This document shows, piece after piece, positions 1 through 59,348 of a stretch of DNA of 64,000 nt. This DNA is from a phage. Each line of letters begins with the position of its first letter. The first letter of the stretch is position 1. The translations under genes were made by a program, and so were the position numbers. A model generated the notes under the pieces. It ran no database searches and had not been told where the DNA came from. It saw only the letters and a program-made list of their open reading frames with translations. Location: assembly GCA_024683775.1 (NCBI GenBank), contig GCA_024683775.1_4106.1; one strand, given 5' to 3'.

Positions 1-12
1 AAAAAAAAAAGC

Positions 13-41
13 TTGACAGGTAGATTTTAATTATATATAAT
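13..41 (+). promoter_or_regulatory. sigma70-type promoter (TTGACA, 17-bp spacer, TATAAT)
   Basis: TTGACA at 13-18, 17-nt spacer, TATAAT at 36-41, about 38 nt upstream of the ATG at 79. Confidence 0.55.
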
Positions 42-78
42 TATCACATACCCAAAATCACAAAAAAAGACAAATAAA

Positions 79-1188
79 ATGCCAAAAGTAAGTATCGACA
101 AAGAAAAATTCATTGAAGAGATGAACAACAAGTATGGAACATATGGTGAATTTGATTTCAGCACTTTAGTATTCAAAGCAAGTAAGACAACAGTTAAATG
201 TAATAAATGCGGAAAAGAAAATACTAAACCTGCACTACGTCACATTTCATGTACATGTGCTTCATGTTATTCAAACATGTCACAGCGTTCGAACAACGAA
301 AAATTTATCAGTACTGTAGAAACTAAATTTGGAAAAGATAAATTCAAATTTGATAAACTAAATTACACTAATGCTATATCAAAAGTAACAATTTTCTGCA
401 CAGATGAAGAGCATAATGATTACTTTGAAATTACACCAAACAAATTTCTTACTGGTAAGGGTTGTCCTGTATGTAATAAAAATGAAGCATACAGTACTGA
501 AGAATTCGTAGAAAAAGTAAAAGAAAATTATGGAAATGACAAATTTGACTTCACGAATACAATATACATTAATCAAAAGAGTAAAGTTGTTGTATACTGT
601 AACGATGGATGTCACTTTTGGGAAGTAGACCCAAAAACTCTATTAGTTGGAAAAACAGGATGTGGTAAATGCTCAGGGAAAGGTGGTCGAAGTAACGATG
701 AATTCATTTTTGAAGCAAAACGTATTCATGGTGATAAGTATGACTATAGCACTGTTGATTATGTTAGTAGTTTAATTTCAATTGACATCAGATGCCCTAC
801 TCATGGAGTATTTAAACAATCACCAAAATCACACATTTTTGGTCGCGGATGTCCTCGTTGTGGAAAGTACGGATATCAATCATCTAAACCTGGATATTTC
901 TATGTTCAGAAACTAACTAACAAAGATAAGACTGTATACAAATATGGAATTACTGGTGATATGAAGAGACGATTACATGAACAAAGTCGTGACTCTGAAT
1001 TTGAACATGAAGTACTCGTCGAACGTTACTTTGAAGATGGTCATAAACCATTAGTACTGGAAAAGTTTTTGAAACAATATATTGATAGTGGTGTTGTAAG
1101 TACTGAAGAGTTACCATCAGGATTTACTGAAACTTTTGATGCTAAGTATCTTGAAAGTGTTTTGGAAATCGTAAATACTTTTAAGTAA
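79..1188 (+). CDS. Zn-ribbon tandem-repeat protein with C-terminal T5orf172 (GIY-YIG-like) domain
   Basis: Four ~50-aa repeats each with K(Y/F)G.DKFDF and paired CxxC motifs; C-terminus YKYGITGDMKRRLHEQ resembles the T5orf172/MUG113 core. Confidence 0.55.
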   Translation: MPKVSIDKEKFIEEMNNKYGTYGEFDFSTLVFKASKTTVKCNKCGKENTKPALRHISCTCASCYSNMSQRSNNEKFISTVETKFGKDKFKFDKLNYTNAISKVTIFCTDEEHNDYFEITPNKFLTGKGCPVCNKNEAYSTEEFVEKVKENYGNDKFDFTNTIYINQKSKVVVYCNDGCHFWEVDPKTLLVGKTGCGKCSGKGGRSNDEFIFEAKRIHGDKYDYSTVDYVSSLISIDIRCPTHGVFKQSPKSHIFGRGCPRCGKYGYQSSKPGYFYVQKLTNKDKTVYKYGITGDMKRRLHEQSRDSEFEHEVLVERYFEDGHKPLVLEKFLKQYIDSGVVSTEELPSGFTETFDAKYLESVLEIVNTFK

Positions 1189-1562: not shown

Positions 1563-1601
1563 TTAATAAATATCTTCATATTACTGATGGAGATATTTTC
1601 T

Positions 1602-1910: not shown

Positions 1911-1922
1911 TAATAAATATAG
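1911..1922 (+). promoter_or_regulatory. late-promoter-like element (ATAAATA core)
   Basis: taATAAATAtag about 33 nt upstream of the tail-fibre ATG; resembles T4 late -10 TATAAATA. Confidence 0.35.
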
Positions 1923-1951: not shown

Positions 1952-3580
1952 ATGAGCATAAGTTTTAATAACCCACTGGATACTATGACTAGTACTGGTG
2001 CTAATGGATCTTTAGAACTAATAGTGCTTGGTGGTACACCAACTAATCCAAGACCTATTCGTTTTAATTCATCTTCTGTCATTTTACCAGTACAGGCATT
2101 GCCAGCAGGTGAGCAAGGTGCTATGGTATTTGATAGAAATGAGTTGGTGTTAAAATACCACAACGGGACAAGTTGGATTGCAGTATACGATACTGATACA
2201 ATTCTTGAACCAATCCGTATTTCACTCGATGAAGTGAACCGTAAACTGAATTTAAAAGTTGAAACAGTAACATATAGTAGTAGTGCTGTTCCAAGTGCGA
2301 GCATTAGTGGTACGAATTTAAATATCGTATTCCCTATTCCATCAAGTAGCGGTACTGGCCCAACAGGTCTTTATACTTCAATGAAGCCTGGTGCAATTAC
2401 CCAGTACTCATTGACTTCTGGACAAACTGTTGCTAGTATTCGTGAACAGATGTCTGGAGTAACCAATGGTCAAAGTGGTCGTAATGGTTCACAAGGTTCT
2501 CCGTGGAAAACATCTGATGGTTGGTGTTTTGCTGATGGAATGTGGTGGACATGGGATGGTGAAAATGGTACAATCACAAAACAAGTTCCAAATCTTAACC
2601 AAGAAGCATACTTGAAAGGTATTACCACATCAGGCGTAACTAAAACTGATAGTGTGATTGCAAGTAGTGCATCAATTAGTGGTACTGCGATATCAATTGA
2701 ACAACTTCCACCGCACTCATTTAGTTTCAGTGGAACTACTGGTGCTGCTGGTCGTCATAGTCATAGCCAAGCACTAAAAGGTATGGACAGAAGTGGTCTT
2801 AATGCGTTAACATCCAGTAACGACAACGGAATCCCAACTGTAATTAATAACATTAACGAAGCACCTAATCACGTGCATAGTTTCAGTGGTTCAACCAATA
2901 CCGTTGGTAGTGGACAAGCACATACCCACGGAATTAGCAATATTGACGTACCACACTTTAATGTGGCATACTTATATAACATTGCTGAGTCTAACGTTGC
3001 ATTGAGTGAAAAAGTTGCAAACACTCGTTATGTACTTAAAACTGGTGATACAATGTCTGGTTCATTGAGTATCGCAAACAGTGCAACAATTCGTTCGAAT
3101 GATACTTCATTAGTACTTTACTTCCGTAACGCGGCAGGAACTACTGAACGTGCAGCAATTTATCACAGTTCATCAACAAATACATTACGTTTGAGAAGTA
3201 ATGGTGGTTCTGAAGTTACAATTAACTCTTCTGGTGTACTTTATGCTCCATCAGTAACTGGTGCATCATTGTCTATTTCTGGAAACACAGCAACTGTTGC
3301 TAGTAAAAACATCGTCAGATCTATTAACGGTAACAACGCTGATGCAAGCGGTAACGTAACTTTAACACTGGGTGCTGTACAAGATGTTCGTTTAAGTAAA
3401 AGAACATCTACGCGAAGTGTTCCTGATTCTTCTTGGATCTATGCACCAGAAGGTGCTACGCTTGATGGGTTGTTTATTTCCGTAAATGGGAGTTCTGGTA
3501 CACACGTTGAAGGTTATAGTTGGAGATATACACAAAAATTAGTCAATGGTGTATGGACTAACGTAGTAGTGGAGTCTTAA
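1952..3580 (+). CDS. tail fibre protein
   Basis: Ser/Thr/Gly/Asn-rich 542-aa protein with HSHS, HVHS, HTHG His-x-His motifs and LKTGDTMSGSL motif typical of phage tail fibres. Confidence 0.6.
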   Translation: MSISFNNPLDTMTSTGANGSLELIVLGGTPTNPRPIRFNSSSVILPVQALPAGEQGAMVFDRNELVLKYHNGTSWIAVYDTDTILEPIRISLDEVNRKLNLKVETVTYSSSAVPSASISGTNLNIVFPIPSSSGTGPTGLYTSMKPGAITQYSLTSGQTVASIREQMSGVTNGQSGRNGSQGSPWKTSDGWCFADGMWWTWDGENGTITKQVPNLNQEAYLKGITTSGVTKTDSVIASSASISGTAISIEQLPPHSFSFSGTTGAAGRHSHSQALKGMDRSGLNALTSSNDNGIPTVINNINEAPNHVHSFSGSTNTVGSGQAHTHGISNIDVPHFNVAYLYNIAESNVALSEKVANTRYVLKTGDTMSGSLSIANSATIRSNDTSLVLYFRNAAGTTERAAIYHSSSTNTLRLRSNGGSEVTINSSGVLYAPSVTGASLSISGNTATVASKNIVRSINGNNADASGNVTLTLGAVQDVRLSKRTSTRSVPDSSWIYAPEGATLDGLFISVNGSSGTHVEGYSWRYTQKLVNGVWTNVVVES

Positions 3581-8154: not shown

Positions 8155-8886
8155 ATGGATCTACGCAACGTACTACGTGACCTAGTTAACACTACCAACG
8201 GCATCGACTTTTCTTGTATCGCAGTTAGCAGTGAAGACCGTGGTGATGGACAGCGTGTTTACATGGAAGCATACACCGATGACCGCACCCTAGTTATGCG
8301 TGCTCACACTAAAGAAGACGTACCAGAAGTTCAAGGTCGTTTTGGTCTTGGTAACCTAGGTCTTCTACAGGGTCTAATGTCTCTAAAAACTTATAGTACT
8401 GAAGGAACTACTATCACTTCTAATTTGAAAGATGGTGCAGTTAAGAGCCTAGCATTCAAAGCAGAAGATGCAAGCACTACTTTCATGGTTCAACCAGAAA
8501 AACTAATTCCAGCCCAGCCTCGTTTCCACGAACAACCATATGACGTACAGGTTACACCTAGTGCAGCTAAAGTTCAGGAACTAAAAAGCTTCTCTGGTGT
8601 GTTTAAATCTTTCAGTTCTCTAGTAACTCCATACACTGAAGGTGATACTCTTTACTTCCACGTTGGTGAGAAGAACAAAAGTAACCACGTTGGTGCACTA
8701 GCATTCTCTAAAACTGAAGGTGAACTAGGTCTTGGTTTTGGTTATAACATTGACCGTGTTCTACAAGCTCTATCCCGCGTTTCTAACGCAGAATCTGTTA
8801 CCCTTGGTATTACCAAAACTGGTATGCTAAACGTAACTCTAGACACTGGTATTGCGGTATACAAGATTTACGTAACAGGTTGCTAA
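8155..8886 (+). CDS. sliding clamp (T4 gp45-like)
   Basis: 243 aa; NVLRDLVNTTNGI and FGLGNLGLLQGLMSL align by eye with the T4 gp45 N-terminal region; highly biased codon usage; position near polymerase. Confidence 0.55.
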   Translation: MDLRNVLRDLVNTTNGIDFSCIAVSSEDRGDGQRVYMEAYTDDRTLVMRAHTKEDVPEVQGRFGLGNLGLLQGLMSLKTYSTEGTTITSNLKDGAVKSLAFKAEDASTTFMVQPEKLIPAQPRFHEQPYDVQVTPSAAKVQELKSFSGVFKSFSSLVTPYTEGDTLYFHVGEKNKSNHVGALAFSKTEGELGLGFGYNIDRVLQALSRVSNAESVTLGITKTGMLNVTLDTGIAVYKIYVTGC

Positions 8887-8896
8887 TATAAATAAT

Positions 8897-8924
8897 GGGG
8901 AACATGGAGTTCCCCAAATTTTTG
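8897..8924 (+). terminator. rho-independent terminator
   Basis: GGGGAAC-ATGGA-GTTCCCC hairpin then T-run. Confidence 0.6.
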
Positions 8925-8952: not shown

Positions 8953-9159
8953 ATGCCATTATATACATATCGTTGTGAAAAAGAAGAATGTAAACACAGT
9001 TTAGAAAAGATTGTAAAAATTGCCAATCGTGAAGAACCTCATGATTGTCCTCAATGTAATGGTGAAAAGACTATGAAGTTGGAAGTTTTTACCCCTGGTG
9101 ATAAAGGTGCTAATCTTTATTTCCGTGGTAAATGGTTTGCAAACACTGGAGGTTACTGA
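8953..9159 (+). CDS. FmdB-like zinc-ribbon protein
   Basis: MPLYTYRCEKEECKH...CPQCNG pattern typical of FmdB-family Zn ribbons. Confidence 0.5.
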   Translation: MPLYTYRCEKEECKHSLEKIVKIANREEPHDCPQCNGEKTMKLEVFTPGDKGANLYFRGKWFANTGGY

Positions 9160-9160
9160 T

Positions 9161-9463
9161 ATGAAAATTAAAATGATTAACGATTATGTACTGGTTCGTC
9201 AAATTGAAGCACAGAATAAAAGTACTGGTGGTATTATCCTAGGAAACGTGGAACCACCATGTGTTGGTATGGTGATTTCAGTTGGTGAAGGTAAAGTACT
9301 ACCTAATGGGCAAATTGCAGAACATAATATTTGTGTTGGTGATATGGTTGTATTCGGTCGCTCATCACTAAACACTCCTATCACTGAAGATCTTGGTGGT
9401 GGTGAAGACACATATTATGTGATGAAAATTGAAGAAATTTTTGGTAAGAAATCAAATGGCTAA
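9161..9463 (+). CDS. GroES-like co-chaperonin (gp31-like)
   Basis: DYVLVRQIEAQNKSTGGIILG ... VGDMVVFG matches the Cpn10 pattern; GGAGG 7 nt upstream of ATG 9161. Confidence 0.6.
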   Translation: MKIKMINDYVLVRQIEAQNKSTGGIILGNVEPPCVGMVISVGEGKVLPNGQIAEHNICVGDMVVFGRSSLNTPITEDLGGGEDTYYVMKIEEIFGKKSNG

Positions 9464-10181
9464 AAAAAGGTTTATTCCTTTCTGGATGGTCCCCGCTCAT
9501 TGGGGACTTTCTGGTAAAGCGAAAGAGATTGCGAAAGCATACTACTATAACGATGATTATGAAGCTGATATGTTAGTTGCAGAACTTACATATCTAACAC
9601 CATATGAAGTTGATGTAGCACAGTTGGATATCAAAAAGAAATACAATGTATTAGAAACTCTTGATTATCTAATAGCACAGGCAGATGTACAATTGAAGTA
9701 TTCCAAGATTACCCGTGATGAGTATAATGTAAAATTACTTGATGCTAAATTAAGTACTGGTGCAATTACTCAAAAAGAGTATGATATGGAAGTAATCGAA
9801 CTAATGCCTGATGGTGATGACAAACGTCTTAAAGCTATCGAGTTTGCATATCGTTATGAAGAGATTACACAACAAGAGTATTCAAAGGAAATCTTTACTT
9901 TACGTAAAGAACCTTGGATTGATTTGGATGTAGTACTTAATCCAGAAACAAATGAAGTTGAATTTGTTTTTGATTATAATGAATACTTTTGGAAAAAGTT
10001 AAAAGCGGAAGGTCATCCAGGTAATGACGAAGAAGAAATTATTGACAACTTCGTTAGAGACATGGGGCGTAAACTAGCTACGGATGATTTCAGTGATGAT
10101 TATGACGTAAAGCTAGTGAATGCGAACGAAGGGTTAGAGAATCTACCTGGTTTACCTGAAGGGTTCCGTTCATACAAATAA
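9456..10181 (+). CDS. hypothetical protein with ITxxEY repeats
   Basis: ORF overlapping the GroES-like stop by 8 nt; repeated ITRDEY / ITQKEY / ITQQEY motifs. Confidence 0.4.
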   Translation: MAKKRFIPFWMVPAHWGLSGKAKEIAKAYYYNDDYEADMLVAELTYLTPYEVDVAQLDIKKKYNVLETLDYLIAQADVQLKYSKITRDEYNVKLLDAKLSTGAITQKEYDMEVIELMPDGDDKRLKAIEFAYRYEEITQQEYSKEIFTLRKEPWIDLDVVLNPETNEVEFVFDYNEYFWKKLKAEGHPGNDEEEIIDNFVRDMGRKLATDDFSDDYDVKLVNANEGLENLPGLPEGFRSYK

Positions 10182-10225: not shown

Positions 10226-10915
10226 TTAAACCATCGCTGGGATGAATTTGAATAGTTTGATACCGAAGTCACCAGCAGCATCAGCAGCTTGGGAACGTAG
10301 AACAACTTCAGTAACACCATCTTTAGCGAGTAGTGGAACTGCGGTTAGGTCATCAATTAGTAGACGGCCTTCTTCGATCTCAGTACTTGGAACGCCTTGG
10401 AAAGATTGAATATCTTTATCAAATACGTTAGCACGTTCAACGAGGAAAGTAACTACTGATGCACTAGCGATATCAACAGCACCAACACTTAGGATACCGT
10501 CAGCAGCGTTGGTAAAACCAGTAACTGCAAATGGTTCAGCGTCGTTGCCAGCGATTTCGGAAGTAGCGATGATAACTGCACGTTGTTGAACAACATCAAC
10601 GATACGTTTAACGTTAGTTTGTGCAGCGTAAGCAGCGTTATAATCAGCTTCTAGAGTTGCTGCTTCAAATGGAGTACCATCGATACGGATGATACCTTTT
10701 TCGTTTAGATATGCAACGATTTCATCAGCTACGTCAGTGTTTAGGAAACGTTGTAGACCAGCGAAAGAACCAACTGCACCAGTAACACGCACGTTAACAT
10801 TACCAATTTTACTAATTGCGATAGATGCTAGGGCGTTTTTGCCACAGAAGTAACCTAGAATTTTATCAAAGGAATAACCATTGATACGTTCAAAAGAAGT
10901 ATTAGTATTAGACAT
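10226..10915 (-). CDS. abundant late protein, paralog B (probable virion structural protein)
   Basis: 229 aa, Ala/Gly/Val/Thr-rich, strongly biased codons; paralogous to 10931-11530 (QQRAV(I/L)..TS and ER..VFDK motifs); GGGGGA RBS. Confidence 0.5.
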   Translation of the reverse strand: MSNTNTSFERINGYSFDKILGYFCGKNALASIAISKIGNVNVRVTGAVGSFAGLQRFLNTDVADEIVAYLNEKGIIRIDGTPFEAATLEADYNAAYAAQTNVKRIVDVVQQRAVIIATSEIAGNDAEPFAVTGFTNAADGILSVGAVDIASASVVTFLVERANVFDKDIQSFQGVPSTEIEEGRLLIDDLTAVPLLAKDGVTEVVLRSQAADAAGDFGIKLFKFIPAMV

Positions 10916-10930
10916 ATTGTAGTCCCCCTA

Positions 10931-11530
10931 TTATAGTTGTACTGGTAGAGCAGCACGAACTTTAATTGCAACAGCGTCAGCGGCAGCAGCATCACCAACA
11001 CCATCAGTACCTAGAGCAACATAAGATTTGGTACGGAAGAATTTAGCTTGTGCAATAGCTTTAGCTAGTTCAACAGTTGGATCAACTGGAACAGAGTAAG
11101 CAGCACCTGGGCGAACTTCTTGTTTGTCAAATACGTCTTGACGTTCACAGATGAAGGTTAGAGCAACAGAACCAGCACCACCTGTAACATCAGCACCACT
11201 AGTACCAAACGCGATTACGTTACCACCAACGGTTTTAAAGTCAGCAGGGATAACAACAGCGGTGTCTAGAGCTAGTACGGAAGTAGTAACTAGTACTGCA
11301 CGTTGTTGTAGTAGTTGGGTAATCATGAATTGGTTGTATTGAGCATTGCTGATTGCAGTTTGTAGTGCTTCATCTTGAATTTCGGAACCGTCAGAAGTAA
11401 CAGCGGTAGTACCAACTTCAACATCTGCTGGTAGATCAACAACGATGGTTACGAAACCATTGTTACCACCCCAGTATTCACGAGCAGTAGCAGACATACC
11501 ATAGTTACGGTTAAAAGAATTAAGACTCAT
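10931..11530 (-). CDS. abundant late protein, paralog A (probable virion structural protein)
   Basis: 199 aa; paralog of 10226-10915; GGAG RBS; late-type elements upstream. Confidence 0.5.
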   Translation of the reverse strand: MSLNSFNRNYGMSATAREYWGGNNGFVTIVVDLPADVEVGTTAVTSDGSEIQDEALQTAISNAQYNQFMITQLLQQRAVLVTTSVLALDTAVVIPADFKTVGGNVIAFGTSGADVTGGAGSVALTFICERQDVFDKQEVRPGAAYSVPVDPTVELAKAIAQAKFFRTKSYVALGTDGVGDAAAADAVAIKVRAALPVQL

Positions 11531-11572
11531 AAAAATCTCCTTGTCAAATTTTGTGCAGGAACACCCTGCTTA

Positions 11573-11647
11573 ATATTATTTATCAAAAAATATAAACCAC
11601 ATTTAAATTTAAGGCAATATTCCCTGATCTCTATGATATTATTTATC
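11573..11647 (-). promoter_or_regulatory. two copies of late-promoter-like GATAAATAATAT element
   Basis: Minus-strand GATAAATAATAT at 11584-11573 and 11647-11636, 40-115 nt upstream of the start at 11530. Confidence 0.4.
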
Positions 11648-11651
11648 AAAT

Positions 11652-16908
<5,257 letters not shown>

Positions 16909-19818: not shown

Positions 19819-20637
19819 ATGACAAAATTAGATGAGTTCCTATCAAACGTATCAGTACTAGACACCGAAACAACTGGTGTCGAAAGTGAAGATGATATTA
19901 TTGAATTTAGTATTTCATATCCTCACGATGCACATGAGAATATTGATACTATTGATAACTACACTTTGCGTTATAAACCACTAAAAGATATACCACCAGA
20001 AGCAAGTGCTGTGCATTTTATCAGTACTGAAGATGTAGCAAACTGCATTGGTTATAAAGATGACTTAGAAAACATTGACGCACTAATGGGGTGTCGTAGT
20101 TATTTTATTGGACACAACGTTCAATTTGACCGCCGAATGATGGTAGATAATGAATATAAATATCGTAACTCAGTTTCGCAGTACTTGCTCGATGAAGATA
20201 AATGGATTTGTACCCTTCGTTTAGCTAAGAAGATGTTTGCAGAAGACACTGAATTCAAAAACTTAACTCTAAGTTATTTGTGGTATAAATTTGGTTGCTA
20301 TCGTGACGTACATCGTGCAGTGAATGCTCACGCAGCAAAAGATGACGTATTCATGTGTTACCAAGTTCTAATCAAATTGATTGAAGTTGCGATTGAACGT
20401 GGACATATTGACCCTAATGGTGACATTGGTGAACAAATCGTAACATTCTGTAATACACCAATGCGTTATAAATTCATGCCATTTGGTAAACACAAAGGCG
20501 AACCAATGGAAACTGTTCCATTGAACTATATTGAATGGATGATTACTAACAGTGATATCCTTGATGCAAGTAACCCAAACTGTGATAAAGATTTAGTATA
20601 TACATTTGAGTACGAATATAATACTCGAACTAATTAA
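19819..20637 (+). CDS. DnaQ-like DEDDh 3'-5' exonuclease
   Basis: Exo I LDTETTG, Exo II GHNVQFD, Exo III H...D (HRAVNAHAAKDD). Confidence 0.65.
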   Translation: MTKLDEFLSNVSVLDTETTGVESEDDIIEFSISYPHDAHENIDTIDNYTLRYKPLKDIPPEASAVHFISTEDVANCIGYKDDLENIDALMGCRSYFIGHNVQFDRRMMVDNEYKYRNSVSQYLLDEDKWICTLRLAKKMFAEDTEFKNLTLSYLWYKFGCYRDVHRAVNAHAAKDDVFMCYQVLIKLIEVAIERGHIDPNGDIGEQIVTFCNTPMRYKFMPFGKHKGEPMETVPLNYIEWMITNSDILDASNPNCDKDLVYTFEYEYNTRTN

Positions 20638-24994: not shown

Positions 24995-25610
24995 TTCGTA
25001 CCGTAAAGCACGAACAGATATCGACATTGACTTCAAAGATAGTAAGTCAGTGATTGCACAGCTTCCTTGTGTGCGAAGTACAGAAAAAATTACGGAGGAT
25101 GGTTTAATCCCCCATAACAGTGGTGTTCATTTTGATAATATACCAATTGACCCTATCACTGGTTTAGCCAGCATACAATATAAAGAAGCCGAACGCTTGG
25201 GATATCAAAAGGTAGATATCCTGTCACAATCGGCTTACCAGTATGTTCGTGATAGAGCACATTTAAAAGAACTAATGAATCAGGAACCTAATTGGGATCT
25301 TCTGTTAGAACCAGAAATAGTTGAACATCTTTCACAGATTAAAAAACACGTTACATTATTAAATGTGTGGAAACCTAAATCCATTGATGAACTTGCAATG
25401 TTTATTGCAATGATTCGTCCTGGAAAAAGGCAGTGCCAAAGTATGAATACATGGAGTGAAGTTGAATCCACTATATGGGATTACAGTACTATTGGCACAG
25501 ACCAAGCAGGAAATAAGTTACGATATTTCAAAAAGCCACATGCGTATGCATACAGCTTAATGATTGTAGTTCAACTTAACGCTTTAGTTGAACATCTTAC
25601 TTCTTCTTAA
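24972..25610 (+). CDS. DnaE-like (Pol III alpha) palm-domain fragment, C-terminal half
   Basis: TDIDIDF resembles the DnaE catalytic PDFDVDF; IDELAMFIAMIRPG vs DnaE FEDMIALVALFRPGP; HAYAYSLM vs SHSAAYALV; GGAG RBS. Confidence 0.45.
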   Translation: MQDSTNSNSYRKARTDIDIDFKDSKSVIAQLPCVRSTEKITEDGLIPHNSGVHFDNIPIDPITGLASIQYKEAERLGYQKVDILSQSAYQYVRDRAHLKELMNQEPNWDLLLEPEIVEHLSQIKKHVTLLNVWKPKSIDELAMFIAMIRPGKRQCQSMNTWSEVESTIWDYSTIGTDQAGNKLRYFKKPHAYAYSLMIVVQLNALVEHLTSS

Positions 25611-25950
25611 GAGCCACATTACGACGCTTGATGCGTTTTTGTGGCAAATCACTTAAAGAAACTACTGGACCACAAACGAAATTCACCGCAGGGGTATCGA
25701 ATCTCTGTGTGTAAGGTTCAAATTTCTCCATCTCTTCTTGGAAGAATAGACAGACTGGAATTGACCTGTTGCTTTGCCACCACCAATCATGTGCTATACC
25801 CAACAATTCATCTTGCATTGGTTCATCCATATCATCAAAGCAGTAAAGAGTAGTATACTGTTTACTTTTTATCTTGATAATACCAATGAAAGTTTTACCA
25901 TCACACTGAACTACCGTGATAAATGGTGGAATAGTATTATATTGATTCAT
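25597..25950 (-). CDS. hypothetical protein (lone minus-strand gene)
   Basis: 117-aa ORF with basic C-terminus; TATAAAT elements in the divergent upstream region. Confidence 0.4.
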   Translation of the reverse strand: MNQYNTIPPFITVVQCDGKTFIGIIKIKSKQYTTLYCFDDMDEPMQDELLGIAHDWWWQSNRSIPVCLFFQEEMEKFEPYTQRFDTPAVNFVCGPVVSLSDLPQKRIKRRNVALKKK

Positions 25951-25958
25951 ATGAGTTC

Positions 25959-25982
25959 CATAAATATTAGTATAAATTTATA
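25959..25982. promoter_or_regulatory. divergent late-promoter-like region with 12-bp palindrome TATAAATTTATA
   Basis: cATAAATAtta at 25959-25969 and the perfect palindrome at 25971-25982 lie between divergent starts at 25950 and 26008. Confidence 0.4.
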
Positions 25983-26007
25983 CCTATTATTTATGGAAGG
26001 AAAAACT

Positions 26008-26985
26008 ATGGCTCATCACGGCGTGTTTATGTACCCTTATAACCAAGAAGTATCATTGGGCAATTTTAATATGCCATATAGCAATGAGAAACTTACAATA
26101 TACAGAGGTGCAAATAACAATTTATCATTCACAGTGCATAACGCTGATGGAAAATATACATTACTAAAAGATAACGAATATCTAACATTCATGATTTTTG
26201 ATGCTAGAAACAATACTAAATTATTCGATGTAGTTTTGGATAAACAAAAACCATCATGGCTATCAGAAAGTGGACAAGCAAGACAAACATTAGGCAATAG
26301 TAAAAAAGTATATTATGGATGTATTGTTCCTGCTGGTGTAATTCAGGATACTAGTCCTGGTTCAAAATATAGATGGAGTATTACTAAAGTAACAATGGAT
26401 GGTTCCTTGATTGAACCTACACAGTACTTATACACTGGTCTTGATTATGAAGCCTCTGCTGAATTGATCATTTCCGACCAAGCTGCTCCTGTGTTTGTGC
26501 CAAGTATTGAAGTATCTGTTAATAAAAACCCAGCATGGACTACCATCAAACGCTTGTATCATGAACCAATCGCTCGTGGCGTTATTGGTGAATTTGATAT
26601 AATGGCAACATCTCCCCTTCCTGCACAAATGCAGTACGGATTAGTTGATGGTCTTAGTACTATTGCAATGTACTTTGATAAATTCATTGGTAGAATTCAA
26701 TTACAAGGATGTTTGTGTAATAACGTACCAACTGATAACGAAAACTATAAATGGTTTATTGTTAAATTGGATGGTAAAGAATATATCGAAAATGATATTG
26801 ATGAAAATGGATTCCCTAAAGCGTTAGATGGGATTCAAGCATTTAATTTTAAAGGTAATTACATGTGGTTGCGATTGGTTGTTTGTATTCATCCTAAGAT
26901 CGTTCCAGTTCCTTATGACTATGCGGCAGTAAGAAAAGTCTATGACCCACTACTGTCAGTTCCTAAAATTTTGATTCGCAGGTGA
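26008..26985 (+). CDS. hypothetical late protein (probable structural)
   Basis: 326-aa ORF from ATG 26008 with GGAAGG RBS; the track ORF from 25774 extends upstream without RBS. Confidence 0.45.
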   Translation: MAHHGVFMYPYNQEVSLGNFNMPYSNEKLTIYRGANNNLSFTVHNADGKYTLLKDNEYLTFMIFDARNNTKLFDVVLDKQKPSWLSESGQARQTLGNSKKVYYGCIVPAGVIQDTSPGSKYRWSITKVTMDGSLIEPTQYLYTGLDYEASAELIISDQAAPVFVPSIEVSVNKNPAWTTIKRLYHEPIARGVIGEFDIMATSPLPAQMQYGLVDGLSTIAMYFDKFIGRIQLQGCLCNNVPTDNENYKWFIVKLDGKEYIENDIDENGFPKALDGIQAFNFKGNYMWLRLVVCIHPKIVPVPYDYAAVRKVYDPLLSVPKILIRR

Positions 26986-30088: not shown

Positions 30089-30477
30089 AACCATATACTT
30101 TCTACACAATTAATACTGTTGTAGATATAGGTGATGGTACAACTCCAACAATCATCGATTCTAAGTTCACAGGTGCTATGAATTTGTCGAGGTTGTTGGA
30201 GGCTATTATGGTACATGATTATCCCATGATGGTAAGTGTAGTAAAAACTGAAATAGATCTATATAAAGATAACAACGCATCTTTCTATAATCTTCCAGTT
30301 TCATGGGGTAAATGTACTCTTAGTACTTTCAAATTCGCAATACCAATGGATGTTGATTTGCGTTTGAATGGAATACCATTAGTTTTACCTACAGAATTAA
30401 ATGGTAAAAGAATTACAAAATTTATCACAACAGGTAATGATACAAATATTAGCATCAGCAAACAGACCTTTTCTTAA
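30085..30477 (+). CDS. hypothetical protein
   Basis: 130-aa ORF. Confidence 0.4.
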   Translation: MKPYTFYTINTVVDIGDGTTPTIIDSKFTGAMNLSRLLEAIMVHDYPMMVSVVKTEIDLYKDNNASFYNLPVSWGKCTLSTFKFAIPMDVDLRLNGIPLVLPTELNGKRITKFITTGNDTNISISKQTFS

Positions 30478-30498
30478 TTGTGATAAATATCATAAAGC

Positions 30499-30520
30499 AA
30501 GACAGAGGTCTTTTTTATTT
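30499..30520 (+). terminator. weak hairpin plus T-run
   Basis: AAGAC-AGAG-GTCTT followed by TTTTTTATTT. Confidence 0.4.
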
Positions 30521-30534
30521 TATATGGAGTAATT

Positions 30535-31497
30535 ATGGATATAAACCAAACAGCAGCGGAGCTACAGAAGTTTGCTGACGCACATAATTTGAATGTTGAT
30601 GTTTCTGTTGTACTGGATAATATGGATGCGGGTGATTTCATCACACTAAATGCCGCTATGGATAATTCAGATAACCGTGAAATTTTTCAAATTCTACAAA
30701 AGTACAAAGCACAAATGAGTGAAAGTTTCTCATACTTCAGTACTGATAATGTAACTAAACATATTGTTGAAAGTTCTGATTGGCATAAGACAGTTGATTC
30801 TATGACAATGAAAGACTTAGTTGAAGCATACAAAAGTAACTTCACATACTCTGATGTTTCTAAGTTGAGTATTCAAGAATTAAAAACTATTGTGTTTGAA
30901 GATTTATCCTCTAATTTGGAAAATCCAGAAAATCAATTAAAATCTACACAGATTGCTAAAATGAATGTGTCACAGCAACAACAGCAAGTGAACCCACAAA
31001 CCCAAGCTAAACTTAAACAAGCAGAACTACAACGTAATGCTAATAACATTAAAGTTAGCGTCCCTGGGAATCAAAGCGGTACTGATTCAATTGAACCTGT
31101 TGTTGGTATCGATGCTGGACAAAACCCACAGCAATCTTTAGTAGTAACTAAAAGTGGCACTAAGCCAAACGAATTGAATGTTTTCCCTTTGGATGATGTA
31201 ACTCCAGTTGACAATCAAAATCAAAGTACTACAATTCGTGAAGAGAAATCACCACAAGAAATTAATAGTGAAGTGATGGGTGAGCCTGGTATGGAACCAG
31301 ACGGTAATCCAAATTCACCATCTCCACTAACACAACACGCACCAGGTATGGGTGAAATGATTCATGCAATCGCTGATATCGAAAAAGAAGATGATATCTA
31401 TGGTGATGAAAGTGTAATGGCAAACTCTGCACAACAAGAGAATGATGAGATGGTAGATCAAATCATTGATTTCTGTCACCGTATGCGAGGCCGATAA
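30535..31497 (+). CDS. hypothetical protein (Gln/Asn-rich)
   Basis: 320-aa ORF. Confidence 0.45.
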   Translation: MDINQTAAELQKFADAHNLNVDVSVVLDNMDAGDFITLNAAMDNSDNREIFQILQKYKAQMSESFSYFSTDNVTKHIVESSDWHKTVDSMTMKDLVEAYKSNFTYSDVSKLSIQELKTIVFEDLSSNLENPENQLKSTQIAKMNVSQQQQQVNPQTQAKLKQAELQRNANNIKVSVPGNQSGTDSIEPVVGIDAGQNPQQSLVVTKSGTKPNELNVFPLDDVTPVDNQNQSTTIREEKSPQEINSEVMGEPGMEPDGNPNSPSPLTQHAPGMGEMIHAIADIEKEDDIYGDESVMANSAQQENDEMVDQIIDFCHRMRGR

Positions 31498-31715
31498 TGA
31501 GAACTGTACCTAATGTTCATGGTCACAACACTATGGTTTCCAACGAAGAATACAGACTATTACAGAAAATTAAGGCACGAGGTTCCGTGCCAGTTGAAAA
31601 AGTAAACGAATACTATCAGGAACTTGCGGATAAAATGGTATCTCGTGGAGTCCTAAATATTGTTGAGAAAGATGACGGTACTGAAGAGTATTCAACTGTT
31701 AGGAGTAATAAATGA
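31497..31715 (+). CDS. hypothetical protein
   Basis: 72-aa ORF. Confidence 0.35.
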   Translation: MRTVPNVHGHNTMVSNEEYRLLQKIKARGSVPVEKVNEYYQELADKMVSRGVLNIVEKDDGTEEYSTVRSNK

Positions 31716-32389
31716 ATTACGAGTACGATCAACAATCAGTTAATCAGATGGCTGATTTGTTAAGCGGTTTGAATGACATTGAAGCTGGTGCAACCCATAA
31801 TGCGTCTGGTGTTCCTTACAAGTCAGGTGGTGATATCGGTGCAATGACCGACATTTTGACATCATTAAATGAAGCTGGTATGAATTATGGTGTTGATCCA
31901 GAACAGACACATCCACATGTTGTTCCATTCCACGCCCCATACAATGAACACATGCTTGGTCACCAACCAGCACAACCTGTTGTACAACGTGCACCTGCTA
32001 AACCTAAAACTAACTGGAGTTTAGTAGAAGAAAAAATTCAAGGTACTAAATCAACAAAAGTATACAGTGTTAAATGTAATCATAGTTCTCAAGTTATCAT
32101 GAATAATATTATGATGTATGAAGCTGCACTAACACTAGTAAACCTTCTCAACGAAGGAAGAATGTTGACAGATGCAAAAGTTCTTGGTATCATCAGTTCC
32201 GGTTTACAATACACCAATGTAATTACCGAAGCATTGAAGGCTGCACAGAAACGTCAACGTGTTCTGAATGAGTCGAAGTACGATGAAGCAAAAGATTTAG
32301 ATATCATCATCGCTGAAAAGAAAGCTGAAGCATACAAACTCAAAGAGCGTGTACTGAACTTTCTAAAGAGTGAAGGTTATATAAAGTAA
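31712..32389 (+). CDS. hypothetical protein
   Basis: 225-aa ORF. Confidence 0.4.
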   Translation: MNYEYDQQSVNQMADLLSGLNDIEAGATHNASGVPYKSGGDIGAMTDILTSLNEAGMNYGVDPEQTHPHVVPFHAPYNEHMLGHQPAQPVVQRAPAKPKTNWSLVEEKIQGTKSTKVYSVKCNHSSQVIMNNIMMYEAALTLVNLLNEGRMLTDAKVLGIISSGLQYTNVITEALKAAQKRQRVLNESKYDEAKDLDIIIAEKKAEAYKLKERVLNFLKSEGYIK

Positions 32390-45565: not shown

Positions 45566-45577
45566 AATAAATAATCA
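45566..45577 (+). promoter_or_regulatory. late-promoter-like element caATAAATAATc
   Basis: ATAAATAAT 33 nt upstream of ATG 45610. Confidence 0.35.
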
Positions 45578-47539: not shown

Positions 47540-49706
<2,167 letters not shown>

Positions 49707-49707
<1 letters not shown>

Positions 49708-54028: not shown

Positions 54029-54038
54029 TTATAAACAG

Positions 54039-54068
54039 GGAAGACCTTTATGGGTCTTCCTTGTCCTT
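54039..54068 (+). terminator. rho-independent terminator
   Basis: GGAAGACC-TTTATG-GGTCTTCC then TTGTCCTTT. Confidence 0.5.
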
Positions 54069-54070
54069 TA

Positions 54071-54080
54071 TATAAATAAT
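54071..54080 (+). promoter_or_regulatory. late-promoter-like element TATAAATAAT
   Basis: Exact TATAAATA 39 nt upstream of ATG 54117. Confidence 0.4.
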
Positions 54081-58394: not shown

Positions 58395-59348
58395 ATGACT
58401 ACATTATGGACTGAAAAATACCGCCCACAAACTATGGAAGATTATGTATCTAAGAACGAAGCCCTACGTCAGAAGATGGAAGAATGGATTCGTACTGGTG
58501 ATATCCCACATATTGGATTTTTTGGACCAGCAGGGACAGGTAAAACTTCAGCAATCAAAGTACTACTGAATGGTCTGGAAGCTAACGGACACCTTGACCC
58601 TAGTGATGTAACAACACTGAATATGTCAGATGAAGGTATCGATGCTGTTCGTGACAAAATTGATGCAGCAGCAAAACTATCATGTTTTGGTCGTTATCGT
58701 GTATTTGTTCTGGAAGAAATGGAACAAATGAACCACAAAGCACAGGGTAGCTTGAAACGTGTCATGGAAGATTACCATGAAAATGCTCGTTTCATTCTTA
58801 CCAGTAATGAACCACATAAGATTCAGAAACCTATTATCTCTCGTGTTCAGGTCATCACCATTGAGAAGCATGATATGGAACAATTCATGTCACGCATCTA
58901 CAACGTACTATTGGCAGAAGGAGTAGATCTAAGTACTGATGAAAGTATTGAACAAGTACAAAAATACATCAATGTTTCATATCCTGATTTCCGCAAAACG
59001 CTAAACGTATTGCAAAGTTCAGTAGTCGATGGTAAACTTGTAAAGCTTGAAGACAGTATTGAGAACTCTGCTGGGTATCGTACTGCCATTATTGATGCAC
59101 TAAAAGCTGGTAACATTCGTCAAATGCGTGAGCAGATCGTGCAAAACATTCCTGATGATGAGATGGATGCATTCTTCTCTTATCTGTATCGTAATGCAGA
59201 AATGTTCAGTACTGATGAAATTACTCTAATGAAAATTAAGGTTAAGATTCGTGACGCTGTTGTTAAACAAGCTACCGTGTCTGACCGTGAAATGAATCTC
59301 AGTGCATTACTGTGTGAGATTGACCTAATCTGTTCGGGGAACATGTAA
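58395..59348 (+). CDS. clamp-loader ATPase (RFC-like; T4 gp44-like)
   Basis: EKYRPQTMEDYV, Walker A FFGPAGTGKTS, LTSNEPHKI sensor region. Confidence 0.85.
   Translation: MTTLWTEKYRPQTMEDYVSKNEALRQKMEEWIRTGDIPHIGFFGPAGTGKTSAIKVLLNGLEANGHLDPSDVTTLNMSDEGIDAVRDKIDAAAKLSCFGRYRVFVLEEMEQMNHKAQGSLKRVMEDYHENARFILTSNEPHKIQKPIISRVQVITIEKHDMEQFMSRIYNVLLAEGVDLSTDESIEQVQKYINVSYPDFRKTLNVLQSSVVDGKLVKLEDSIENSAGYRTAIIDALKAGNIRQMREQIVQNIPDDEMDAFFSYLYRNAEMFSTDEITLMKIKVKIRDAVVKQATVSDREMNLSALLCEIDLICSGNM

What the first reader, a model, noticed from the sequence alone, without database searches (positions are those of the whole stretch)
11573..11647. Late-type ATAAATAAT elements mark dispersed structural genes
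The 12-mer GATAAATAATAT occurs twice upstream of the minus-strand structural paralogs and once before the 434-aa gene at 15594. Close variants precede the tail-fibre gene (1913), the gene at 45610, the 799-aa gene (54071) and the divergent pair at 25950/26008. The core resembles the T4 late -10 TATAAATA. This suggests late genes are scattered among replication genes rather than grouped, with no late sigma gene visible in this window.
Basis: partly seen in the sequence, partly recalled or inferred. Interest (0 to 1): 0.4.

Follow-up and report, generated by a model that had tools for sequence, protein, structure and literature searches.

The report
Late-gene promoters of a jumbo coliphage
The repeated ATAAATA-containing elements are real and are almost certainly T4-style late promoters that switch on virion genes scattered among the replication genes of a giant E. 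coli phage, but the same motif had already been predicted in related phages, so this is a solid but ordinary finding.

Summary
The functional unit is the 7-mer ATAAATA, not the 12-mer.

- In the window 12 of 13 copies are intergenic, each 29-109 nt upstream of a gene and pointing toward it.
- The word is purged from coding DNA in both orientations (1 and 0 copies against 8.4 and 11.3 expected).
- It is nearly absent from the early-gene region of the 99.6%-identical genome fEgEco12.
- It keeps a fixed distance upstream of the same genes in nine genomes from seven host genera.
- 8 of 11 motif-headed units contain virion genes, against 3 of 32 others. Orthologues were detected in CBB virions by mass spectrometry.

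There is no -35 element, the downstream stretch is A/T-rich, and both polarities occur, as at T4 late promoters. A gp55-type late sigma lies about 13 kb outside the window. The clamp and clamp loader are inside it. No gp33 homologue or clamp-binding tail on the sigma was found.

Buttimer et al. 2017 predicted this motif, including orthologous sites, in phage CBB, and say GAP32 has it too. No transcript data exist, so "late" is inferred. This is a new member of a known kind, of low interest.

The parts
11636..11647 (-). Distal late-type promoter P2 of the g364-g363 operon. The core ATAAATA is at 11640-11646, 109 nt upstream of the start codon.
   Evidence: Exact 12-mer. The core is invariant in 9 genomes at 109-121 nt, while the flanks vary.
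11573..11584 (-). Proximal late-type promoter P1 of the g364-g363 operon. The core is at 11577-11583, 46 nt upstream of the start. The predicted start site is near 11571/11570.
   Evidence: Exact 12-mer. TTGATAAATAA is invariant in 9 genomes. It is orthologous to CBB 'Porf_271 ATAAATAACATTAA' in Table S7.
11555..11569 (-). Stem-loop GCAGG-N5-CCTGC that begins 1-2 nt after the predicted P1 start site. It is probably a 5'-terminal hairpin of the late mRNA.
   Evidence: The stem is kept in 9 genomes with variable loops. RaK2 has GTAAG/CTTAC, compensated at two pairs. The stabilising function is inferred.
10226..11530 (-). Two paralogous virion structural genes, g364 (10931-11530) and g363 (10226-10915), served by P1 and P2.
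   Evidence: Both match phrog_9326, and BLASTP gives E 8e-7. The CBB orthologues CBB_271 and CBB_270 were detected in virions by MS at 56% and 91% coverage.
11673..11681 (+). Extended -10 promoter TGCTATAAT of the non-late class, with GGGAAA 16 nt upstream. It serves the divergent RNase H-like gene at 11742-12728.
   Evidence: This is an invariant island in the 9-genome alignment. TGNTATAAT occurs 17 times against 6.2 expected, upstream of replication units. It matches the CBB Table S6 class.
15558..15564 (+). Late-type core, 29 nt upstream of the structural gene g370 (15594-16898). It overlaps the terminase stop codon.
   Evidence: Conserved at 29-34 nt in 9 genomes. The CBB orthologue is listed as Porf_276, and CBB_276 was detected by MS.
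1913..1919 (+). Late-type core, 32 nt upstream of the tail fibre gene (1952-3580) and the fibre assembly gene.
   Evidence: Conserved at 31-37 nt in 9 genomes. CBB lists the orthologue as Porf_260.
1566..1598 (+). Late-type core (1566-1572) plus a hairpin (1568-1598) whose 3' arm holds the Shine-Dalgarno GGAG of the GIY-YIG/T5orf172-type gene g352 (1602-1910).
   Evidence: Folds. The same design, with different stem sequences, occurs in all 8 genomes that carry the gene. A T4 precedent exists for genes e, soc, 49, I-TevI and free-standing homing endonuclease genes.
8888..8916 (+). Late-type core (8888-8894) abutting a terminator-like hairpin (8896-8916) after the clamp gene. It heads the unit g360-g361-g362 (8953-10181; g362 is structural).
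   Evidence: This site is found only in this genus, in the window and phAPEC6. The predicted start falls inside the 5' arm, which is an inference.
25960..25994 (.). Back-to-back late-type cores at 25960-25966 (+) and 25988-25994 (-). They serve the structural gene at 26008-26985 (+) and the 117-aa gene at 25597-25950 (-).
   Evidence: Both orientations are conserved in 9 genomes at 37-44 and 35-43 nt. The gene calls are supported by four relatives. CBB lists Porf_289.
30464..30511 (+). Late-type core (30483-30489) in the loop of a terminator-like hairpin followed by a T-run. It lies upstream of the structural genes g389-g390 and of g391 (30535-32389).
   Evidence: In the four Mimasvirus/Eneladusvirus genomes the stem is a near-perfect 17-19 bp with the core in its loop. 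The core is conserved in 7 of 8 genomes covered.
45567..45573 (+). Late-type core, 36 nt upstream of g411 (45610-46176), whose function is unknown.
   Evidence: g411 matches phrog_16501, of unknown function. Conservation in relatives was not examined, because the region lies outside the fetched loci.
47540..47596 (+). Late-type core (47565-47571) in the 25-nt loop of a perfect 16-bp A/T-flanked hairpin. It lies upstream of g415-g416-g417 (47601-50501; g416 and g417 are structural).
54038..54078 (+). Terminator-like hairpin (54038-54060) followed by a late-type core, TATAAATA at 54071-54078. It lies 38 nt upstream of the 798-aa structural gene g420 (54117-56513).
   Evidence: g420 matches phrog_13911, 'virion structural protein'.
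8155..8886 (+). Sliding clamp gene g359, the gp45 counterpart and the candidate activator of late transcription.
   Evidence: No sequence-level hit. The AlphaFold model has pLDDT 91.9. Foldseek matches PCNA clamps with probability 1.00 and TM 0.66-0.74.
58395..59348 (+). Clamp loader large subunit gene g425.
   Evidence: phrog_168 'clamp loader of DNA polymerase', E 3e-78. Pfam DNA_pol3_delta2 and AAA also match.
20156..20162 (+). The only ATAAATA inside a coding sequence, in exonuclease gene g374. It is probably not a promoter.
   Evidence: It is kept only in phAPEC6 and RaK2, in the codon context GAA TAT AAA TAT.

Best explanation
The window comes from a ~350-385 kb jumbo coliphage of the PBECO4/121Q/fEgEco12 group (genus Asteriusvirus, RaK2-like).

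ATAAATA is the -10-type core of this phage's late promoters. It is read by host RNA polymerase core carrying a phage gp55-type late sigma, which is encoded about 13 kb upstream of the window.

Transcription is inferred to start about 6 nt downstream of the core. It runs into virion genes that sit as small units between replication operons.

The flagged region 11531-11741 is a divergent control region. Two tandem late promoters (P2, P1) drive the abundant paralogous virion proteins g364 and g363 on the minus strand. A sigma70-type extended -10 promoter drives the RNase H-like replication gene on the plus strand.

Shown here:
- the placement, orientation, purging and cross-genus conservation of the core;
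- its association with virion genes;
- the presence of a gp55 homologue, a sliding clamp and a clamp loader.

Inferred:
- that the sigma reads this core;
- the start-site position;
- late timing;
- any activation by the clamp.
For: 1. Placement. 12 of 13 cores are not inside a CDS, although only 5.2% of the window is intergenic. The binomial probability is 1.3e-7 against the 22% average for AT-only heptamers. All 12 point at a start codon 29-109 nt away.

2. Purging. The window holds 13 copies against 29.8 +/- 4.8 in shuffles. Synonymous-codon shuffles of 80 CDS expect 8.4 sense and 11.3 antisense copies. The observed counts are 1 and 0, and 0 of 500 shuffles go that low. Genome-wide there are 49 copies, against 134-245 for same-composition heptamers. 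The 0-80 kb early region has one copy.

3. Conservation. The core keeps a fixed distance upstream of g352, g353, g364 (both copies), g370, gX1 and g383 in all genomes that carry the gene, and upstream of the capsid gene in all eight relatives. g389 has it in 7 of 8 genomes. The genomes come from 7 host genera. The core is absent upstream of the clamp, RNase H, gp32, RecA, primase and g355 genes in every genome. In the alignment of the flagged region only the cores, one stem and the opposite-strand -10 survive.

4. Gene class. 8 of 11 motif-headed units contain virion-structural genes, against 3 of 32 others (odds ratio 26, p 1.5e-4). PHROG 'virion structural' families match. CBB orthologues were detected in virions by MS.

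5. Architecture. It matches the T4 definition in PMC2988020. There is no -35 element (information content <=0.28 bits). A/T is enriched at +7 to +13 (about 79% against 68%, computed by hand from the counts). A is preferred 6 nt after the core (24/35). Both polarities occur.

6. Machinery. A profile of the sigma family hits only T4 gp55 in the PDB (7d7c_F, E 1.5e-7). It also matches phrog_234 'late sigma transcription factor' at E 1.5e-16. The gene sits next to gp47/46-type nuclease genes; that this resembles T4's gene order is from memory. The clamp fold is confirmed. The clamp loader is confirmed.

7. Cascade logic. The sigma gene and the replication units carry a different promoter class, TGnTATAAT, with a complementary distribution.

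8. Site designs. Some designs only work if transcription starts just after the core. One is an RBS-sequestering hairpin at a GIY-YIG gene in 8 of 8 genomes. Others place the core in terminator loops. T4 precedent is in PMC3014915.
Against: - No transcription start sites or time-course data exist for this genus. Promoter activity and late timing are therefore unproven.
- The T at the first position of T4's TATAAATA is not conserved here (8 of 35 sites).
- No gp33 homologue was found (best E 1.8). Sensitivity was marginal, because the gp32 control reached only E 0.002.
- The sigma's C-terminus lacks the hydrophobic clamp-binding type of tail that the phage's own polymerase carries, GFFxW. Clamp-coupled activation may not apply.
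- The sigma has a ~120-aa insertion relative to T4 gp55.
- Three motif-headed units have no known virion gene (g352, gX1, g411).
- Three structural units, and the terminase and holin units, lack the exact core. g392 and the holin unit carry GTAAATA.
- The sigma gene was seen in a 99.6%-identical relative, not in the window's own genome.
Confidence: 0.82

Rival explanations
1. The elements are promoters, but they are read by a different factor. One candidate is the phage's second, sigma70-family sigma (fEgEco12 g519). Another is host sigma70 with an unknown phage activator, instead of the gp55-like protein.
For: A second sigma gene exists in the genome. The gp55-like protein is atypical, with a ~120-aa insertion, no clamp-binding tail and no gp33 partner.
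Against: Sigma70-family factors with regions 2-4 normally use a -35 or an extended -10 element. Neither accompanies the core. The phage's sigma70-like promoters form a separate class with a complementary distribution. Seven of the eight positions of the gp55-specific T4 box match.
Confidence: 0.08
2. The 12-mer GATAAATAATAT is itself the functional unit. It could be the binding site of a regulator, or a distinct strong-promoter subclass shared by g364 and g370.
For: There are three exact copies. The position frequencies of 35 sites predict about 0.4 copies (hand calculation).
Against: The flanks are not conserved in relatives at P2 or at g370. Only the 7-mer is invariant there. At P1 the conserved flank is TTGATAAATAA + TTAAG, not the 12-mer. 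Information content outside the core is at most 0.44 bits.
Confidence: 0.05
3. The motif acts at the RNA level, as a processing, stability or translation signal in 5' leaders, and not as a promoter.
For: It always lies in the sense orientation upstream of an RBS. Several sites are associated with hairpins.
Against: The word is purged from the antisense strand of genes at least as strongly as from the sense strand (0 against 11.3 expected). An RNA signal would not cause that. The distance to the start codon varies from 29 to 109 nt. Back-to-back divergent copies serve genes on both strands. Hairpin enclosure is not a general property of the sites (40% against 36% in shuffles).
Confidence: 0.03
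4. The pattern is a by-product of AT-rich intergenic composition.
For: The 9-mer count alone is only marginal: 7 against 3.0 expected, and 4 of 100 shuffles reach it.
Against: ATAAATA ranks first of 128 AT-only heptamers for intergenic fraction, and it is the rarest of its composition class. The early region is rich in AT-rich gaps and has almost none. The word is conserved at orthologous sites in nine genomes.
Confidence: 0.01

Closest known systems
Bacteriophage T4 late promoters (TATAAATA; gp55 + gp33 + gp45 sliding clamp), as reviewed by Geiduschek & Kassavetis 2010, PMC2988020
   Same: - A single short A/T box at the -10 position, with seven of eight positions identical.
- No -35 element, and A/T-rich sequence downstream.
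- Either polarity.
- Placement in front of virion and morphogenesis genes.
- Strong avoidance of the word elsewhere in the genome.
- A gp55 homologue, a sliding clamp and a clamp loader are encoded.
- Tandem late promoters, and late promoters placed inside RBS-sequestering hairpins, also occur in T4 (PMC3014915).
   Different: - The first T of the box is unconstrained here (T in 8 of 35 sites).
- The sigma is ~280 aa, with a ~120-aa insertion, against 185 aa in T4.
- The sigma shows no recognisable clamp-binding C-terminal tail.
- No gp33 homologue is detectable.
- Nothing has been tested experimentally in this phage group.
'Promoter 3' (ATAAATA) predicted upstream of structural genes in the RaK2-like jumbo phage CBB, and reported there for GAP32 as well (Buttimer et al. 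2017, PMC5259590, Table S7; citing Abbasifar et al. 2014)
   Same: The motif and the interpretation are the same. Table S7 lists the direct orthologues of the window's sites: Porf_260, Porf_271, Porf_276 and Porf_289. A gp55-like sigma lies near the capsid gene in the same relative position.
   Different: The genus and host differ (Asteriusvirus on E. coli). The published prediction came from MEME on regions upstream of structural genes only. It did not include purging statistics, cross-genus footprinting or the second g364 promoter (P2). One site here (8888) is genus-specific.
T4 translational control of genes e, soc, 49, I-TevI and free-standing homing endonuclease genes, using RBS-sequestering hairpins that contain late promoters (Uzan & Miller 2010, PMC3014915)
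   Same: At g352, a GIY-YIG/T5orf172-type gene, a hairpin starting at the core pairs with the Shine-Dalgarno sequence. A transcript that starts about 6 nt after the core would lack the 5' arm.
   Different: This is predicted from folds in eight genomes only. Formal covariation analysis failed because the alignment could not be registered. No expression data exist.

Membership tests
T4-type (gp55-dependent) late promoter | Conserved A/T box matching TATAAATA at the -10 position | tested here: met
   ATAAATA (positions 2-8 of the T4 box) is invariant at 35 candidate sites and at orthologous sites in nine genomes.
T4-type (gp55-dependent) late promoter | T at the first position of the 8-bp box (-13) | tested here: not met
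   The counts at that position are A 11, C 7, G 9, T 8 of 35. This is also the most variable position in T4, with A at 9 of 50 sites, and it differs in Aeh1.
T4-type (gp55-dependent) late promoter | No conserved -35 element | tested here: met
   Information content is at most 0.28 bits at every position from -40 to -13.
T4-type (gp55-dependent) late promoter | A/T preponderance between the box and the start site | tested here: met
   Positions +7 to +13 are 79% A/T, against 68% in the flanks (hand calculation from the counts). Position +13 is A/T in 34 of 35 sites.
T4-type (gp55-dependent) late promoter | Serves late functions (virion, morphogenesis) in either polarity | tested here: met
   The unit-level Fisher test gives p 1.5e-4. 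Three of the twelve window sites are on the minus strand, and divergent pairs occur. Orthologues were MS-detected in virions.
T4-type (gp55-dependent) late promoter | The phage encodes a gp55 homologue | tested here: met
   It is not in the window. In the 99.6%-identical fEgEco12 it lies at 190974-191912. It matches phrog_12791 and phrog_234. The family profile's only PDB hit is T4 gp55, 7d7c_F, at E 1.5e-7.
T4-type (gp55-dependent) late promoter | The phage encodes a sliding clamp (gp45) and a clamp loader | tested here: met
   Window 8155-8886 has a PCNA-type fold (pLDDT 91.9; Foldseek probability 1.00). The clamp loader is at 58395-59348.
T4-type (gp55-dependent) late promoter | gp33 co-activator present | tested here: inconclusive
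   phmmer with T4 gp33 against all 3252 ORFs of the genome gave a best E of 1.8. The gp32 control reached only E 0.002, so sensitivity is poor. The CBB authors also found none.
T4-type (gp55-dependent) late promoter | Hydrophobic/acidic clamp-binding epitope at the sigma C-terminus | tested here: not met
   The sigma's tail is variable and not hydrophobic (...IEIEMNMIERKNEDGSI). The phage's own polymerase ends in a conserved GFFxW. An internal or different epitope cannot be excluded.
T4-type (gp55-dependent) late promoter | Start site about one helical turn downstream, activity late and replication-coupled | not testable with these tools
   No transcript data exist. The only hints are indirect: a preference for A 6 nt after the core, and hairpin designs.
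RaK2-like jumbo phage predicted late promoter ('promoter 3', ATAAATA) | ATAAATA with A/T downstream, upstream of structural genes, at sites orthologous to those published | tested here: met
   CBB Table S7 entries Porf_260, Porf_271, Porf_276 and Porf_289 correspond to window sites 1913, 11577, 15558 and 25960.
Host sigma70 promoter | TTGACA-like -35 and TATAAT-like -10 elements at 16-18 bp spacing, or a TGnTATAAT extended -10 | tested here: not met
   No -35 signal is present. TGnTATAAT sites form a separate set upstream of replication units.

The most novel reading that the evidence does not exclude
RaK2-like jumbo phages may run a stripped-down variant of T4 late transcription. It would use a gp55-type sigma with a large insertion, no gp33, and no clamp-binding tail on the sigma. 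Late promoter recognition would then be uncoupled from the sliding clamp, or coupled through an unknown adaptor.

At some sites the promoter core is nested in, or abuts, an intrinsic terminator hairpin (47540-47596, 30464-30511, 8888-8916). Upstream early or middle transcripts would stop there, while late transcripts would start inside the hairpin and escape it. That arrangement could be what allows virion genes to be interleaved with replication operons.
Probability: 0.2. Interest if true: 0.45.

Novelty: new member of a known kind. Interest (0 to 1): 0.2.

Why it matters
This gives a usable late-promoter map for an Asteriusvirus genome: 12 exact sites and 4 variant sites in this window, and about 35 candidate sites across the related fEgEco12 genome.

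- **Annotation fixes.** It corrects the start of the structural gene at 26008, the minus-strand 117-aa gene, and the N-terminus of the sigma.
- **Temporal class.** It predicts a temporal class for several unknown genes (g411, gX1, g415).
- **Concrete predictions.** It supplies predicted start sites that transcript 5'-end mapping can check.
- **Open question.** It shows that the T4 late-promoter logic extends to a distant jumbo-phage clade. It also flags that two T4 hallmarks, gp33 and the clamp-binding tail on the sigma, are not evident there.

Because the motif was already predicted for sister genera, the conceptual gain is small.

Tried and rejected
1. **The 12-mer as the functional unit: rejected.** Its flanks are not conserved in relatives.
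2. **"Core enclosed by a hairpin" as a general rule: rejected.** 40% of sites have an enclosing stem of at least 6 bp, against 36% in flank shuffles. Only individual sites are convincing.
3. **Formal covariation test of the g352 hairpin: failed.** MAFFT could not register the variable loops, and RNAalifold returned no pairs.
4. **Single-sequence PDB searches: uninformative.** Neither the sigma nor the clamp gave a meaningful hit. The sigma needed a profile. The clamp needed a fold search, because even a profile failed.
5. **g421 (56786-57304) as a gp33-like clamp partner: rejected.** I considered it because it ends in EFLKW, like the polymerase's GFFTW. It is a DNA polymerase III alpha-domain fragment.
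6. **The CBB-type upstream element TGAAAY-N(15-19)-TGNTATAAT: not found.** It has no match in the window. In this genus the upstream element looks like GGGAMA.
7. **The generic sigma70 scan: uninformative.** It found 70 sites against 70.1 expected.
8. **PA5oct RNA-seq: no help.** The study on this distant relative reports only sigma70-like promoters, so it does not settle timing here.

Full report
**Identity of the window.**
The window is 99.3-99.7% identical to nine jumbo coliphages of 352-384 kb, among them fEgEco12, WPEC3 and Ecwhy_1. It is about 84% identical to the G17/phAPEC6/Sharanji group (genus Asteriusvirus). It is 67-74% identical to RaK2, Munch, CBB, GAP32, XbC2 and Erwinia phages. 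From about position 1190 onward it is collinear with fEgEco12 from about 206,000 to 268,815. The first ~1.19 kb differs.

**Observation.**
GATAAATAATAT occurs at 11573-11584 (-), 11636-11647 (-) and 15557-15568 (+). Shuffles expect 0.06 copies. The core ATAAATA occurs 13 times on both strands:
- plus strand: 1566, 1913, 8888, 15558, 20156, 25960, 30483, 45567, 47565, 54072;
- minus strand: 11577, 11640, 25988.

Four sites were missed (1566, 8888, 30483, 47565). The two minus-strand genes downstream of the flagged region are paralogues (phrog_9326; BLASTP E 8e-7).

**More than chance?**
The count is not elevated. It is depleted: 13 copies against 29.8 +/- 4.8 in dinucleotide shuffles. The signal lies in where the copies sit.
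- After I corrected three gene calls using four relatives, 12 of 13 copies are outside coding sequence. Only 5.2% of the window is intergenic. All 12 point at a start codon 29-109 nt away.
- ATAAATA has the highest intergenic fraction of all 128 AT-only heptamers. It is also the rarest of the 21 heptamers with its composition.
- Shuffling synonymous codons within the 80 complete genes predicts 8.4 +/- 2.3 sense and 11.3 +/- 2.9 antisense copies in coding DNA. The observed counts are 1 and 0, and no shuffle out of 500 goes that low.
- Avoidance on both strands indicates a DNA-level signal that is harmful wherever it arises. That is what a strong, simple promoter would be.

**Genome-wide control.**
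I assembled 368.9 kb of fEgEco12.
- ATAAATA occurs 49 times, against 134-245 for same-composition heptamers.
- The first 80 kb is an early-type region of small plus-strand genes with many AT-rich gaps. It holds a single copy.
- The 29-kb baseplate/head region holds 12 copies. Nearly all lie 25-60 nt upstream of baseplate, hub, portal-region, scaffold and capsid genes, and of the endonuclease VII gene.
- About 35 sites genome-wide have promoter-like placement.

**Sequence profile.**
Across those 35 sites only the seven core positions are informative.
- The base before the core is unconstrained (T in 8 of 35).
- There is no -35 signal.
- Positions +7 to +13 are A/T-rich.
- A is preferred 6 nt after the core (24 of 35), and the next position is A/T in 34 of 35. 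A T4-type start site would fall there.
- A T-run at -12 to -8 reflects terminators that often lie just upstream.
- The extra letters of the 12-mer fall within weak preferences. About 0.4 exact 12-mers would be expected among 35 sites, and 3 are seen (hand calculation).
- Those flanks are not conserved in relatives at P2 or at g370.

**Phylogenetic footprinting.**
I compared nine genomes from seven host genera. The core keeps a nearly fixed distance upstream of the same genes:

| Gene | Distance to start (nt) |
|---|---|
| g352 | 22-37 |
| tail fibre gene | 31-37 |
| g364, P1 | 46-53 |
| g364, P2 | 109-121 |
| g370 | 29-34 |
| 117-aa minus-strand gene | 35-43 |
| g383 | 37-44 |
| g389 (7 of 8 genomes) | 37-45 |
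| major capsid gene (eight relatives) | 44-49 |

- The core is absent upstream of the clamp, RNase H, gp32, RecA, primase and g355 genes in every genome.
- The 8888 site is confined to Asteriusvirus.
- A core upstream of the DNA polymerase gene appears only in RaK2, XbC2 and SNUABM_12.

In the alignment of the flagged intergenic region, a few islands survive in otherwise scrambled DNA:
- the P2 core;
- P1 as TTGATAAATAA plus TTAAG;
- a stem GCAGG/CCTGC (GTAAG/CTTAC in RaK2);
- the ribosome-binding sites;
- on the other strand, TGnTATAAT for the RNase H-like gene.

**Gene class.**
At the level of transcription units, 8 of 11 motif-headed units contain a virion-structural gene, against 3 of 32 units without the motif (odds ratio 26, p 1.5e-4). 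Of the 3 exceptions, g392 carries the variant GTAAATA. That variant is itself rare, with 5 copies, 4 of them intergenic. It also lies upstream of the holin operon. In CBB, virion mass spectrometry detected the orthologues CBB_270 (91% coverage), CBB_271 (56%), CBB_276 (22%) and CBB_260.

**Machinery.**
- *Sigma.* No sigma gene lies in the window. In fEgEco12, about 13 kb upstream, g336 matches PHROG late-sigma families. A profile of 18 family members hits only T4 gp55 in the PDB (7d7c_F, E 1.5e-7). g336 is followed by gp47/46-type nuclease genes. Its annotated N-terminus is probably 33 residues too long, because the extension overlaps a minus-strand late core.
- *Promoter of the sigma gene.* The sigma gene itself is preceded by GGGACA-N16-(TGc)TATAAT. 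That is the same class as the RNase H promoter in the flagged region.
- *The second promoter class.* TGNTATAAT occurs 17 times against 6.2 expected. It lies upstream of the RNase H, gp32, primase and exonuclease units and of several units of unknown function, and never together with ATAAATA.
- *Clamp and loader.* The window gene 8155-8886 has no sequence-level match. It folds confidently (pLDDT 91.9) as a PCNA-type clamp. The clamp loader is at 58395-59348.
- *Missing T4 hallmarks.* No gp33 homologue was detected, at marginal sensitivity. The sigma lacks a tail like the polymerase's conserved GFFxW.

**Site designs.**
Several sites sit in structures that make sense only if transcription starts just after the core.
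- *g352 (GIY-YIG/T5orf172-type).* A hairpin beginning at the core pairs with the Shine-Dalgarno sequence in all eight genomes that have the gene, using different stem sequences. This is the documented T4 design for e, soc, 49, I-TevI and free-standing homing endonuclease genes (PMC3014915).
- *47540-47596 and 30464-30511.* The core lies in the loop of a terminator-like hairpin followed by a T-run.
- *8888.* The core abuts a terminator-like hairpin.
- *P1.* A conserved stem-loop would sit at the very 5' end of the late transcript.

Enclosure by a hairpin is not enriched over all 35 sites. A formal covariation test failed. These remain site-specific observations.

**Comparison with what is known.**
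The features match the T4 late promoter as defined by Geiduschek & Kassavetis (PMC2988020), apart from the unconstrained first position. For RaK2-like phages the motif is already published as a prediction. Buttimer et al. 2017 (PMC5259590) report ATAAATA upstream of structural genes in CBB, at 35 locations according to the text. They say it also precedes structural genes in GAP32, and they report a gp55-like sigma and no gp33. Their Table S7 lists the orthologues of four window sites. The genome paper for the closest relative does not mention promoters. I found no transcript-level study of this genus.

**Verdict.**
The unit is the 7-mer, and the late sigma lies just outside the window. The finding re-derives a published prediction in a sister genus, so it is a new member of a known kind and of low interest. 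The main open point is whether late transcription here is clamp-coupled as in T4.

Noticed in passing
window 14121-14261 (large terminase; extra base at about 14181): Relative to phAPEC6, a single extra base sits inside the Walker A codons of the large terminase. phAPEC6 reads [13 protein letters not shown]. Here frame 0 reads ARQMRKNN... and stops at 14261. GKTTVAAAF continues only in the +1 frame, and the downstream ORF's first ATG (14224) lies after the P-loop. Nine near-identical isolates from independent labs are 100% identical across the site, and a 97.5% relative has no indel. The frame break is therefore real and fixed in this lineage. It implies +1 recoding at CAG-AUG-C-GGA (CGG being, from memory, a rare Arg codon in E. 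coli), transcript slippage, or a split enzyme. The fEgEco12 paper does not mention it.
   Followed up: partly
window 1-1188: A 369-aa homing-endonuclease-like ORF lies at 79-1188 (phrog_681 'endonuclease', E 9e-75; weak zinc-finger and T5orf172 segments). It lies in the window's first ~1.19 kb, which does not match fEgEco12; that phage's annotation has no gene in this slot. A gene occupies the same slot after the capsid gene in phAPEC6, RaK2 and EJP2. A perfect 12/12 sigma70 consensus, TTGACA-17-TATAAT, precedes it at 13-41.
   Followed up: partly
window 11673, 16900, 16977, 22150, 27003, 33426, 39903, 57314 (+); L007 14990-15015: A second promoter class, an extended -10 TGnTATAAT, occurs 17 times against 6.2 expected. 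GGGAMA lies about 16 nt upstream at the two sites examined. It lies upstream of the RNase H, gp32, primase and exonuclease units, of several units of unknown function, and of the gp55-like sigma gene. It is never combined with ATAAATA.
   Followed up: partly
window 1171 (+), 32386 (+), 42799 (-), 60029 (+): The variant GTAAATA has only 5 copies in the window. Four were scored intergenic, and all four point at gene starts: g351, the structural gene g392, the holin operon and g427. With the corrected gene list, the copy at 1171 lies in the 3' end of the 79-1188 ORF. These are probably weaker late promoters. CBB's list likewise includes CTAAATA and GTAAATA variants.
   Followed up: partly
window 25641-26007; L007 14975-15073: The closest relative probably has three annotation errors. 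(1) g383 is given a 5' extension from 25789 that runs through two conserved promoter cores; the start supported by four relatives is 26008. (2) A plus-strand 'g382' replaces the conserved minus-strand 117-aa gene at 25597-25950. (3) The sigma g336 is given 33 extra N-terminal residues that overlap the late core of the neighbouring baseplate gene.
   Followed up: yes
L007 23651; L003 3517; L004 3420; L005 2809: An ATAAATA lies inside the coding sequence of the tape-measure-like gene, about 190 nt upstream of the portal gene in fEgEco12. A copy lies at a similar position in that gene in four phages, although the surrounding sequence differs. It may be an internal late promoter for the portal gene.
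   Followed up: no
fEgEco12 record position 84132 (-) (L009 34132): An orphan intergenic site has the extended sequence ATAAATAATATTATA. It lies just upstream of the head maturation protease gene but points the opposite way. No minus-strand gene is annotated there. It may drive an antisense RNA or an unannotated small gene.
   Followed up: no
window 56786-57304: g421 is a 172-aa fragment-like protein matching only positions 15-95 of the 260-position DNA polymerase III alpha NTPase domain (PF07733, E 6e-9). It may be a remnant or a piece of a split gene. It is one of only two real proteins in the genome that end in [FL][FL]xW, the other being the replicative polymerase.
   Followed up: partly
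window 32423-33055: T4 gp59 (helicase loader) gives a borderline phmmer hit (E 0.007) to g392. The g392 family is annotated as virion structural, and its CBB orthologue was detected in virions. The hit may be spurious.
   Followed up: no
fEgEco12 record 330398-348732 (L013 11498-29832): An array of 15 minus-strand genes, mostly paralogous RCC1-like ('chromosome condensation regulator'), has gaps of about 70 nt. It carries no intergenic ATAAATA, although the CBB paper reports that a homologue was found in GAP32 virions by mass spectrometry. These genes may use a different promoter.
   Followed up: no
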